Assembly: GCF_003334815.1 (NCBI RefSeq)
Contig: NZ_QOWO01000015.1
Length of the DNA stretch: 64,000 nucleotides
Direction: 5' to 3' (one strand)
Source of the DNA: Escherichia coli
Lineage (GTDB): Bacteria; Pseudomonadota; Gammaproteobacteria; Enterobacterales; Enterobacteriaceae
The position numbers and the translations under genes were made by a program. Below the pieces are notes generated by a model. It made no database searches, had not been told where the DNA came from, and saw only the letters and a program-made list of their open reading frames with translations. Of the stretch, positions 328-63,124 are shown piece after piece. Each line of letters opens with the position of its first letter. The first letter of the stretch is position 1.

Positions 328-1950
<1,623 letters not shown>

Positions 1951-7159: not shown

Positions 7160-7262
<103 letters not shown>

Positions 7263-60892: not shown

Positions 60893-62353
60893 TTATTCAT
60901 CTTTCGGCGCAGAATGCTGGCGACCAAAAATCACCTCCATCCGCGCACCGCCCAGCATGCTCTCTCCGGCGACGATTTTACCCTCATATTGCTCGGTGAT
61001 TTCGCGGGCTACCGCCAGCCCTACACCTTGCCCAGGGCGTAAAGTATCAACCCGTTGACCACGGTCGAAAATGACCTCTCGCTTGCTTAATGGAATACCG
61101 GGGCCATCATCCTCGACCACAATATAGAGATGCTCGTCGGTTTGCCTTGCAGAAATTTCGACAAACTCGAGGCAATATTTACAGGCATTATCCAGCACGT
61201 TGCCCATCACCTCGACAAAATCGTTCTGCTCACCGACAAAGCTGATCTCTGGCGAAATATCGAGAGAGATATTGACCCCTTTGCGTTGATACACTTTGTT
61301 CAGCGCTGAGGTGAGATTGTCCAGCAGTGGGGCGACCGGATGCAGCTCGCGGCTGAGCAATGTCCCGCCGCGCATACTGGCACGATGCAGGTAGTAGCCA
61401 ATTTGCTGTGAAATGCGGCTGATTTGCTCCAGCATTACCGGCTCAGCATCACTGACGCTCATCTTTTCACTACGCAGAGAACGCAGCGTACTTTGCAGCA
61501 CCGCCAGTGGCGTTTTCAGACTATGGGTCAGGTCGGTGAGCGTCGTACGGTATTTGTCGTAACGTTCGCGTTCACTTTTTAACAATCGGTTCAGGTTTCG
61601 TACCAGACTGGTCAGTTCTCGCGTTGTGGCTGGATTGAGCAATTCGCGGTTATGTTCTTCCAGTTCGCGGACTTCTTTTGCCAGGGCTTCGATGGGGCGT
61701 AAACTCCACCAGGCGGCGACCCACAGCAGCGGGATCACTAACAGCAGATTGGCTGAGAGCACATAGATAAACCAGCTCCAGACCATATAGGAACTTTTTA
61801 GCTCCACCGGAATGGTATCCACCACCACAATGGTTAATTTTGGCATCCGCGATGTTGCCGGGTAGACGTTTACTGCCACCGAGTGGGTCATCTCCGCGTC
61901 GTCATCATCTTCCCGCACTTCCTGCAACTGTTGCTGTATCGAATGATCTCCACTCAGCAAGAGGCTGGTATCGTTAACATCCGCTTCAATTTCATGAAAA
62001 CCATTCGATTTCAGCCAGTCAGGCTGGATCATCTTCATCAGCCAGGGCACGTCACGTTGCGCCCATAAAAGCTGCCCGTTCTCATCATAAATTAGCGTCA
62101 TGGTGGGGCTTTGCTTGTCGATATTTTCGGGTAACTCGACATGCAACTTATTGTTTTCCCACTTCGCAAGGGTATAGAACAGATTGCTCTCGCCACGTAA
62201 CAGCCGAAACGTAGTTTTATCGAAACTGACGCTATAACCGATCAGCGCGACCATTCCGTAGGCAAGCGAAAGCACCAGTACTACCGCTGCCGTTGCCAAC
62301 AGAAAACGTACCCGCAGCGAGAGCGGGAAAAAAAGACGCAGTAATTTTTTCAT
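60893..62353 (-). CDS. phoQ: Sensor histidine kinase PhoQ, 486 aa
   Basis: 486-aa ORF with two TM segments, periplasmic sensor, HAMP, H-box ([15 protein letters not shown]) and ATPase domain. Confidence 0.96.
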
Positions 62354-63024
62354 CAGCGCAATTCGAACAGATAGCCCTGGCCGCGAACGGTGGTAATCAC
62401 TTCTTGGGGATATTGTGCCTGAATTTTTTTGCGCAGACGTCCCATCAGTACATCAATGGTATGGCTTTCCCGCAGCTCCGCATCCGGATAGAGTTGGAGC
62501 ATTAACGAATCTTTGCTGACCACTTTGCCATTATTGCGTATCAACGTTTCCATAATGGTGTATTCGAACGCGGTCAGTTTGATCACTTCGTCATTAATAG
62601 ATAATTCACGGCGAGAGAGATCAACCTGAAACGGGGGGAGCGAAATGACCTGTGAAGCCAGACCGCTATTACGCCGCATTAATGCCTGCATTCGCGCCAT
62701 CACCTCTTCAATATGAAACGGTTTAGTCACATAATCATCAGCACCGGCACTTAATACTTCGACTTTGTCCTGCCAGCTTTCACGGGCGGTTAATACCAGA
62801 ATCGGCAGTGAAACATCGTTGCTACGCCAGCGGCGAATCAGTGACAGACCGTCCTCGTCTGGCAATCCGAGATCGACAATCGCAATATCCGGTATATGTT
62901 CATTGAGATAATAATCGGCTTCTTTGGCATCTTCTGCGTCATCGACCTGATGACCAGCATCCTGAATCTGAACTTTAAGGTGGTGACGTAACAACGCATT
63001 GTCTTCAACAACCAGTACGCGCAT
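62353..63024 (-). CDS. phoP: Response regulator PhoP, 223 aa
   Basis: 223-aa OmpR-family [43 protein letters not shown]; stop overlaps phoQ start by 1 nt. Confidence 0.96.
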
Positions 63025-63083
63025 TTTTATTTCTCCCTGTCTTAATTATTAAAATAGTGTAACGCGATTATGTGGTTATGGGG

Positions 63084-63101
63084 GTAAACATTAAATAAAC
63101 C
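63084..63101 (-). promoter_or_regulatory. PhoP box (GGTTTA-N5-TGTTTA direct repeat) in the phoP promoter
   Basis: Minus-strand reading of 63085-63101 gives GGTTTATTTAATGTTTA, 60-77 nt upstream of the phoP ATG. Confidence 0.7.
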
Positions 63102-63124
63102 AGCGGGGAGGGGAGGTAAAGTGA

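What the first reader, a model, noticed from the sequence alone, without database searches (positions are those of the whole stretch)
63084..63101. PhoP direct repeat upstream of phoP (autoregulation)
The minus strand reads GGTTTA-TTTAA-TGTTTA, a clean match to the PhoP box (T/G)GTTTA-N5-(T/G)GTTTA, at 60-77 nt upstream of the phoP start. It sits in the same 168-bp spacer as the purB-distal hairpin, so the phoPQ promoter and the purB terminator are packed together.
Basis: partly seen in the sequence, partly recalled or inferred. Interest (0 to 1): 0.2.

Follow-up and report, generated by a model that had tools for sequence, protein, structure and literature searches.

The report
Known PhoP box of phoPQ promoter
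This is the well-known binding site through which the E. coli magnesium-sensing regulator PhoP switches on its own operon; it is real, conserved and correctly interpreted, but already described in the literature.

Summary
It is the only exact match to (T/G)GTTTA-N5-(T/G)GTTTA in 64 kb, against 0.03 expected. The window is the E. coli purB-phoP-phoQ locus, and the purB-phoP spacer is 168 bp as stated.

The repeat points toward phoP and ends 12 nt upstream of a CATAAT -10 hexamer. The published PhoP-activated P1 start (36-nt leader, RNA beginning ACACUAUUUU) falls at 63060. That is 25 nt downstream of the repeat, so the box spans -41 to -25. This matches the "architecture I", class II layout described for the Salmonella phoP promoter.

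In 54 distinct orthologous spacers, the proximal half-site is 100% conserved and the distal one 93%. The first three spacer bases are only 26-74% conserved, and the 12-nt gap to the -10 is kept in 53 of 54.

The nearby hairpin is a short REP-like palindrome at the purB terminator position.

Side observation: in some Citrobacter and Enterobacter strains, integrase-bearing DNA sits directly upstream of the phoP -10 and displaces the box.

The parts
63085..63101 (-). PhoP box GGTTTA-TTTAA-TGTTTA. It spans -41..-25 relative to the published P1 start and -77..-61 relative to the ATG.
   Evidence: only exact match in the window; 0.03 expected; conserved in orthologs
63096..63101 (-). Distal half-site GGTTTA
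   Evidence: 93% mean column conservation in 54 distinct orthologous spacers
63085..63090 (-). Proximal half-site TGTTTA. It overlaps the position where a -35 hexamer would lie.
   Evidence: 100% conserved in 54 distinct orthologous spacers. The hexamer at the -35 position (63090..63095, TTTAAT) matches TTGACA at only 3 of 6 bases (read), and the sigma-70 scan does not call a promoter here.
63067..63072 (-). -10 hexamer CATAAT of the PhoP-activated promoter P1, 12 nt downstream of the box
   Evidence: Sequence; 98% conserved; 12-nt box-to-hexamer spacing in 53 of 54 orthologs (50 by regex, plus 3 with GACAAT read directly); same layout as architecture I in PMC3335776
63060..63060 (-). P1 transcription start (A of ACACUAUUUU), taken from the literature and not mapped here
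   Evidence: PMC3536696: 36-nt leader; oligos 5'Ptet-phoP and 5'T7phoP begin the phoP RNA at acactattttaataattaag
63025..63060 (-). phoP 5' leader (36 nt). It holds the Shine-Dalgarno GGGAG at 63033..63037 and the six bases 63036..63041 (GACAGG) that are changed in the published GcvB-pairing mutant mutR3.
   Evidence: oligo phoPmutR3for compared with wild type; PMC3536696
63053..63066 (-). Block CGCGTTAcACTATT (discriminator to +8). It is 89% conserved, almost as much as the -10, for no established reason. In other genera the junction with integrase-bearing DNA lies just upstream of this block, at the -10.
62353..63024 (-). phoP coding sequence (223 aa)
   Evidence: annotated as PhoP in an identical RefSeq record
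60893..62353 (-). phoQ coding sequence (486 aa). Its start overlaps the phoP stop by one base.
63193..64000 (-). 3' part of purB (adenylosuccinate lyase), which runs off the window; stop TAA at 63193..63195
63155..63179 (-). REP-like palindrome GCCGGATGGCGATGCTGTCCGGCCT, with a 10-bp stem and 3-nt loop at 63157..63179. It lies 14 nt after the purB stop, where other genera have a canonical purB terminator hairpin.
   Evidence: MFE -21 kcal/mol for the 91-nt stretch, z = -2.9. Its ends match the canonical REP at 7228..7259. Ortholog hairpins followed by CTGCTTTT are seen.
63124..63136 (-). T-rich tract CTTTTTATTTTTT between the hairpin and the box. Its role is not established; it could be a U-tract of the terminator region and/or an A+T-rich upstream element of the constitutive promoter.
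   Evidence: the role is inference only
63115..63120 (-). Candidate -35 (TTTACC) of the constitutive promoter P2, paired with a candidate -10 TATTTA at 63092..63097 (17-nt spacer) inside the PhoP box. This is my inference and is not verified.
   Evidence: Sequence. [quoted passage not shown] The paper that mapped P2 could not be read.

Best explanation
The repeat is the PhoP box of the PhoP-activated promoter P1 of the E. coli phoPQ operon. Under low Mg2+, PhoQ phosphorylates PhoP. A PhoP-P dimer then binds the two direct GTTTA half-sites head to tail. The site replaces the missing -35 hexamer and sits one helical turn (12 nt) upstream of the CATAAT -10, so bound PhoP-P recruits sigma-70 RNA polymerase in a class II manner. 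Transcription starts at 63060, giving a 36-nt leader followed by phoP and phoQ. The result is positive autoregulation on top of basal transcription from constitutive promoter(s) further upstream. Shown here: the sequence, its statistical rarity, its geometry relative to the -10, and its phylogenetic footprint. Taken from papers read here: the P1 start site, PhoP dependence, and the existence of a constitutive P2. Inferred from the Salmonella phoP/mgtA work: the class II contact with RNA polymerase.
For: The box is the only exact match in 64 kb (0.03 expected). It lies in the 168-bp purB-phoP spacer and is oriented toward phoP. The published P1 +1 maps to 63060, 25 nt downstream of the box. A 12-nt gap separates the box from CATAAT, and the -35 position matches consensus at only 3 of 6 bases. 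This equals architecture I in PMC3335776, in which the Salmonella phoP promoter has one direct PhoP box 12 nt upstream of the -10 and is predicted to be class II. Footprint in 54 distinct orthologous spacers: proximal half-site 100% conserved, distal 93%, the first three spacer bases 26-74%, -10 98%, and the 12-nt spacing kept in 53 of 54. All 5426 complete E. coli genomes carry the 76-nt promoter segment at 80% coverage or more, and all but 3 of 5428 records are at least 95% identical. PMC2650801 reports that phoPQ autoregulation is conserved in ten enteric species, that it was shown experimentally in E. coli, and that deleting the box in Salmonella prevents growth in low Mg2+. PMC3750022 describes P1 as PhoP-P-activated and P2 as constitutive. 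PMC8355897 gives the PhoP box definition and attributes it to Kato 1999.
Against: Nothing in the sequence argues against it. There are three limits. No binding or transcription was measured here. The primary E. coli papers (Kato 1999, Minagawa 2003) are not in the held library, so their results are cited second-hand. The box is not universal: Klebsiella has a degenerate first half-site (TATTTA), Kluyvera has AATTTA, and about 16 of 80 species representatives have foreign DNA in place of the box. Autoregulation through this exact site is therefore not obligatory in every lineage.
Confidence: 0.96

Rival explanations
1. The same site has a second job. Because the core of the constitutive promoter P2 overlaps the box, bound PhoP-P also occludes P2, so the box acts as a switch from P2 to P1 rather than only as an activator site.
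For: [quoted passage not shown] This places the P2 -35 immediately upstream of the box. A plausible -35 TTTACC (63115..63120) followed by a 17-nt spacer and TATTTA (63092..63097) lies inside the box.
Against: The papers read describe P2 as constitutive, not PhoP-repressed. My P2 hexamers are weak (4/6 and 3/6), and the sigma-70 scan did not call them. The P2 start could not be checked because Kato 1999 is not held. The TTTACC element is conserved only within Escherichia.
Confidence: 0.1
2. The repeat is a chance A+T-rich match with no regulatory function.
For: The spacer is A+T-rich, and short T-rich motifs are commoner in such DNA. Sites with up to 2 mismatches occur at chance frequency in the window.
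Against: An exact match is expected 0.03 times in the whole window, hence about 1e-4 times in a 168-bp spacer. The half-sites are 93-100% conserved while the bases between and around them vary. The position relative to the -10 and to the published start fits the known architecture exactly.
Confidence: 0.01
3. The site is used by a different OmpR-family response regulator, or it serves purB rather than phoP.
For: Response regulators of this family all bind direct repeats with roughly 11-bp periodicity.
Against: The hexamers match the PhoP consensus exactly, not merely the family periodicity. The site lies downstream of the purB stop codon and hairpin, and it is oriented toward phoP with the correct spacing to the phoP -10.
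Confidence: 0.02

Closest known systems
E. coli K-12 phoPQ promoter P1 with its PhoP box (Kato, Tanabe and Utsumi 1999, J Bacteriol 181:5516, as cited in PMC3536696, PMC3750022 and PMC8355897)
   Same: It is the same locus. The window is 100% identical over 401 bp to many E. coli chromosomes. The published P1 leader sequence matches 63060..63025 base for base.
   Different: Nothing detectable. This is the described element itself, not a relative.
Salmonella enterica phoP promoter (phoPp1), architecture I of Zwir et al. 2012 (PMC3335776)
   Same: It has a single direct PhoP box 12 nt upstream of the -10 and no good -35, and it gives positive autoregulation. The Salmonella orthologs in my set (L035, L049) carry GGTTTATTAACTGTTTA at the same position.
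   Different: The 5-nt spacer differs by two bases (TTAAC versus TTTAA). The leader sequence differs. The E. coli spacer holds a REP-like hairpin and a T-rich tract not present in Salmonella (126-bp spacer).
Yersinia pestis y1795-phoP-phoQ operon (Perez et al. 2009, PMC2650801)
   Same: PhoP autoregulation is maintained.
   Different: In Yersinia there is no PhoP box immediately upstream of phoP; the box lies upstream of an extra gene. E. coli keeps the box next to phoP.
REP (repetitive extragenic palindrome) elements of E. coli
   Same: The purB-distal hairpin starts GCCGGATG and ends TCCGGCCT, like the canonical REP at 7228..7259 in this window. It is extragenic and lies at the 3' end of a gene.
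   Different: It is shorter (25 nt against 32 nt between the same end motifs), and its centre differs from the canonical copy.

Membership tests
PhoP box (PhoP-P binding site) | Two direct hexamers (T/G)GTTTA separated by 5 nt | tested here: met
   Exact match GGTTTA-TTTAA-TGTTTA at 63085..63101 on the minus strand; definition as quoted in PMC8355897
PhoP box (PhoP-P binding site) | Conservation of the half-sites, but not of the spacer, in orthologous promoters | tested here: met
   Half-sites 93% and 100% conserved; first three spacer positions 26-74%; 54 distinct spacers
PhoP box (PhoP-P binding site) | Binding and protection by phosphorylated PhoP | not testable with these tools
   PMC2650801 reports it for E. 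coli phoPQ, citing Minagawa 2003. The primary paper is not held.
Architecture I / class II PhoP-activated promoter (Zwir 2012) | Single box in direct orientation, 11-12 nt upstream of the -10 hexamer | tested here: met
   12 nt (63073..63084) lie between the box and CATAAT. The same spacing is seen in 53 of 54 orthologs. Definition. There is no second box with 1 mismatch or fewer in the window.
Architecture I / class II PhoP-activated promoter (Zwir 2012) | Box overlaps the -35 position, and a consensus -35 hexamer is missing | tested here: met
   The hexamer 17 nt upstream of the -10 is TTTAAT (3/6 match to TTGACA). No sigma-70-like promoter is called in the spacer.
Architecture I / class II PhoP-activated promoter (Zwir 2012) | PhoP- and low-Mg2+-dependent transcription start about 7 nt downstream of the -10 | not testable with these tools
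   The literature start (36-nt leader, ACACUAUU) maps to 63060, 7 nt after the -10. It was not measured here.
Intrinsic (Rho-independent) terminator of purB | G+C-rich stem-loop directly followed by a U-tract | tested here: inconclusive
   The stem has 10 bp, 7 of them G-C. The tail CUGCUUAUUA has only 5 U in 10, and the long T-run starts 20 nt after the stem. Orthologs in other genera have a hairpin followed by CTGCTTTT at the same place. Termination was not measured.
REP element | Imperfect palindrome with GCCGGATG...TCCGGCCT ends, extragenic, in multiple copies per genome | tested here: inconclusive
   The end motifs match the canonical copy at 7228..7259, with 2 matches in the window against 0 expected. 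However, the element is short, and only one other copy lies in the window.

The most novel reading that the evidence does not exclude
The core of the phoP P1 promoter (-10 through about +10, 63053..63072) may double as an attachment site for a family of tyrosine-integrase elements. When such an element inserts, it brings its own sequence up to the -10 and removes the PhoP box from phoP. This is seen in Citrobacter freundii-complex and Enterobacter cloacae-complex representatives, some of which keep only a remnant holding an IraM-like gene and a reverse-strand PhoP box. Such strains would have lost or rewired phoPQ autoregulation. If so, the unusually high conservation of CGCGTTAcACTATT in E. 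coli could reflect a function beyond promoter activity. Nothing of this kind is present in the window itself.
Probability: 0.3. Interest if true: 0.35.

Novelty: already known. Interest (0 to 1): 0.05.

Why it matters
It matters little as a discovery. The site is the textbook cis-element of PhoP positive autoregulation in E. coli, and the result mainly shows that the first-stage reader can recognise a real regulatory site from sequence alone. The site's biological role is well established. Per PMC2650801, removing the equivalent box in Salmonella prevents growth in low Mg2+, and the P1/P2 design shapes feedback behaviour of the circuit (PMC3750022). The only part with some potential is the side observation that mobile DNA replaces the box in some Citrobacter and Enterobacter strains. 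That would give natural variants for testing what autoregulation is worth.

Tried and rejected
(1) I tried to read the primary E. coli papers directly: Kato 1999 (PMID 10464230 / PMC94065), Minagawa 2003 (PMC161583) and Coornaert 2010 (PMC2925231). None is held. The P1 start was instead recovered from oligo sequences in the supplement of PMC3536696. The P2 start could not be recovered.

(2) An Rfam scan of 62800..63400 at E <= 1 found nothing, so there is no known RNA family in the spacer or leader.

(3) The generic sigma-70 scan finds no promoter in the spacer. This is expected for an activator-dependent promoter without a -35, so it does not count as evidence against the promoter.

(4) I looked for further PhoP boxes in the window. 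None has 1 mismatch or fewer, and the 2-mismatch sites occur at chance level, so I did not pursue them.

(5) I considered a chance match, a site for another response regulator, and a purB-directed site, and rejected all three (see the rival explanations).

(6) A literature search for an island between purB and phoP found nothing relevant in the held library. This does not show that it is undescribed.

(7) I considered whether the reverse-strand box in the Enterobacter remnant could activate phoP. It lies 114 nt upstream of the phoP -10, far beyond the 27-48 nt at which reverse boxes work in PMC3335776. It more likely belongs to the IraM-like gene.

Full report
**Observation.**
Read on the minus strand, the window shows ...CCCCGCT GGTTTA TTTAA TGTTTA CCCCCATAACCA CATAAT CGCGTT ACACTATTTTAATAATTAAGACAGGGAGAAATAAAA ATG. 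The 17-nt repeat occupies 63085..63101. Upstream, an ORF that runs off the window ends with TAA at 63193..63195.

The pattern KGTTTA-N5-KGTTTA occurs exactly once on both strands of the 64-kb window. Dinucleotide shuffles give a mean of 0.03 matches, and 2 of 100 shuffles give any match. No other site has a single mismatch. The 19 sites with up to two mismatches are within chance (13.25 +/- 3.75).

**Identity of the locus.**
A 401-nt stretch around the site is 100% identical to many E. coli chromosomes and is present in all 5426 complete E. coli genomes. The features under the match are annotated purB and phoP. In one such record the gene order is mnmA-hflD-purB-phoP-phoQ-roxA. The 76-nt promoter segment 63050..63125 is found at 80% coverage or more in every one of the 5426 genomes, and all but 3 of 5428 records are at least 95% identical.

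**Anatomy relative to the promoter.**
PMC3536696 states that the proximal phoP promoter P1 is positively regulated by PhoP and gives a 36-nt leader. The paper's oligos 5'Ptet-phoP and 5'T7phoP begin the phoP RNA at acactattttaataattaagacaggg.

- This places +1 at window 63060.
- The hexamer CATAAT (63067..63072) is then at -12..-7.
- The box is at -41..-25, and exactly 12 nt separate box and hexamer.
- The hexamer at the usual -35 position (TTTAAT, 63090..63095) matches TTGACA at 3 of 6 bases, and the generic sigma-70 scan calls no promoter in the spacer.

PMC3335776 defines architecture I as a single PhoP box in direct orientation 12 nt upstream of the -10. It lists phoP, mgtA, slyB and others as members, predicts class II activation for them, and shows that orientation and distance are critical. 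The window's site fits every sequence-level feature of that definition.

**Comparative evidence.**
A scan of one genome per species with the PhoP protein returned 80 loci from Escherichia, Citrobacter, Enterobacter, Salmonella, Klebsiella, Kluyvera, Kosakonia and others. An exact box lies 76-81 nt upstream of the phoP ATG in 46 of them. Several more have one deviation in the distal half-site.

I aligned 54 distinct uninterrupted spacers. Conservation by segment was:

| Segment | Conservation |
|---|---|
| Proximal half-site | 100% at all six positions |
| Distal half-site | mean 93% |
| First three bases of the 5-nt spacer | 31%, 74%, 26% |
| 12-nt gap to the -10 | mean 63% |
| -10 hexamer | 98% |
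| Sequence upstream of the box | 35% |

The box-to-hexamer distance is 12 nt in 53 of 54 sequences. Conserved half-sites, a free spacer and fixed phasing are what a functional response-regulator site should show.

**Literature.**
- PMC2650801 reports that phoPQ and slyB are the only targets with PhoP sites in all ten enteric species examined. It also reports that direct regulation of phoPQ was shown experimentally in E. coli (citing Minagawa 2003), and that a Salmonella mutant lacking the box in the phoP promoter cannot grow in low Mg2+.
[quoted passage not shown] - PMC8355897 attributes the PhoP box definition to Kato 1999.
- The primary papers themselves are not in the held library.

**Mechanism.**
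The best-supported mechanism is the established one. Under low Mg2+, PhoQ phosphorylates PhoP. PhoP-P binds the direct repeat in place of a -35 element and recruits RNA polymerase to the CATAAT hexamer. Transcription starts at 63060 and raises PhoP and PhoQ levels above the basal level set by the upstream constitutive promoter(s). The sequence-level steps are shown here. Binding, PhoP dependence and the start site come from the cited papers. The class II contact is inferred from the Salmonella work.

**The rest of the spacer.**
Its ends, GCCGGATG...TCCGGCCT, match a canonical REP copy at 7228..7259. There are two such matches in the window against none expected. I therefore read it as a short REP-like palindrome.

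Its tail (CUGCUUAUUA) is only moderately U-rich, and a longer T-run (63124..63136) starts 20 nt later. In Enterobacter, Lelliottia, Kluyvera and others, the same position holds a canonical hairpin (e.g. CCCCCTTTCC-loop-GGAAAGGGGG) followed by CTGCTTTT, which abuts the PhoP box within about 10 nt. The terminator and promoter being packed together is therefore a general feature of the locus; E. coli is in fact the roomier case.

From PMC3750022, the P2 -35 should lie just upstream of the box. TTTACC (63115..63120), followed by 17 nt and then TATTTA (63092..63097), is a candidate, but this is my inference only. If it is right, PhoP-P binding would also occlude P2. I keep this as a minor rival or additional function.

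No Rfam family matches the spacer or leader. The leader contains the GACAGG hexamer (63036..63041) that is altered in the published GcvB-pairing mutant.

**Things seen on the way.**
- The block CGCGTTAcACTATT (63053..63066), from the discriminator to +8, is 89% conserved, almost as much as the -10. I have no established explanation for this.
- In 13 of the 80 species representatives (Citrobacter freundii complex, Enterobacter cloacae complex, Lelliottia), similarity to the plain spacers begins only at CATAATCAGCGTTAAACTATTC, and foreign DNA lies upstream.
- In seven of these (L007, L012, L016, L017, L021, L032, L042) the foreign DNA is a full-length or near-full-length tyrosine integrase gene ending 74 nt before the phoP ATG (phrog_1, E = 3e-57). 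In the others, including three E. cloacae-complex representatives (L028, L029, L052), and in three further loci (L048, L050, L057), only diverged or fragmentary integrase sequence remains.
- In E. cloacae-complex representatives, the 891-952-bp spacer holds an ORF that matches the IraM anti-adaptor family (NF007393, E = 2e-28). It also holds a minus-strand PhoP box, TGTTTATTAACTGTTGA, 114 nt upstream of the phoP -10. In these loci the ancestral box is absent.
- The insertion varies between strains. Four other genomes encode exactly the same PhoP protein as the island-bearing C. werkmanii locus but have a plain 196-nt spacer with GGTTTATTAAATGTTTA, then 12 nt, then CATAAT.
- A search of the held literature found nothing on this.

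None of this is in the window. It is recorded as a lead.

**Verdict.**
The feature is the already-described PhoP box of the E. coli phoPQ P1 promoter. Interest is low.

Noticed in passing
window 63053..63066 (minus strand): The block CGCGTTAcACTATT, spanning the discriminator and the first 8 transcribed bases of P1, is 89% conserved across 54 distinct enterobacterial spacers. That is nearly as much as the -10 and far more than the rest of the leader (49%). Neither the PhoP box nor the -10 explains it.
   Followed up: partly
L007, L012, L016, L017, L021, L022, L023, L028, L029, L032, L036, L042, L052 (about 70-1000 nt upstream of phoP); remnants also in L048, L050, L057: In Citrobacter freundii-complex, Enterobacter cloacae-complex and Lelliottia representatives, a tyrosine-integrase gene or its remnant lies directly upstream of the phoP -10. 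Similarity to plain loci starts at CATAATCAGCGTTAAACTATTC, so the PhoP box is displaced or missing. The insertion varies between strains: L082-L085 encode the same PhoP protein as L012 but have the plain spacer with the box.
   Followed up: partly
L052 396..788 (minus) and 1021..1037; likewise L028 and L029: The 891-952-bp purB-phoP spacer of E. cloacae-complex genomes holds an ORF that matches the IraM anti-adaptor family (NF007393, E = 2e-28; phrog_4407). It also holds a minus-strand PhoP box, TGTTTATTAACTGTTGA, about 230 nt upstream of that ORF's start and 114 nt upstream of the phoP -10.
   Followed up: partly
window 63155..63179 and 7228..7259: The purB-distal hairpin shares its end motifs (GCCGGATG...TCCGGCCT) with a canonical REP copy elsewhere in the window. 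It is a shortened REP-like palindrome rather than a classic terminator with an adjacent U-tract.
   Followed up: partly
L071, L075, L077, L078, L079 (Klebsiella and relatives); L041, L044, L046, L054, L058, L059, L062, L063 (mostly Kluyvera): The distal half-site is degenerate in these genera (TATTTA in Klebsiella; AATTTA, or GATTTA in L059, in the Kluyvera group; CATTTA in L058, an Enterobacter sp.). The proximal half-site (Y)GTTTA is kept, with an 11-12-nt gap to the -10: 12 nt in the Kluyvera-group loci, 11 nt read in the Klebsiella example.
   Followed up: no
L009 and L067: In Citrobacter amalonaticus S646 and Intestinirhabdus alba, an exact PhoP box lies 204 and 228 nt upstream of the phoP ATG instead of about 78 nt. 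This suggests an insertion between the box and phoP.
   Followed up: no
E. coli genome collection: Eleven of the roughly 5430 matches to the purB-phoP spacer are on records labelled as plasmids. This was not examined; it may reflect mislabelled replicons or assembly artefacts.
   Followed up: no
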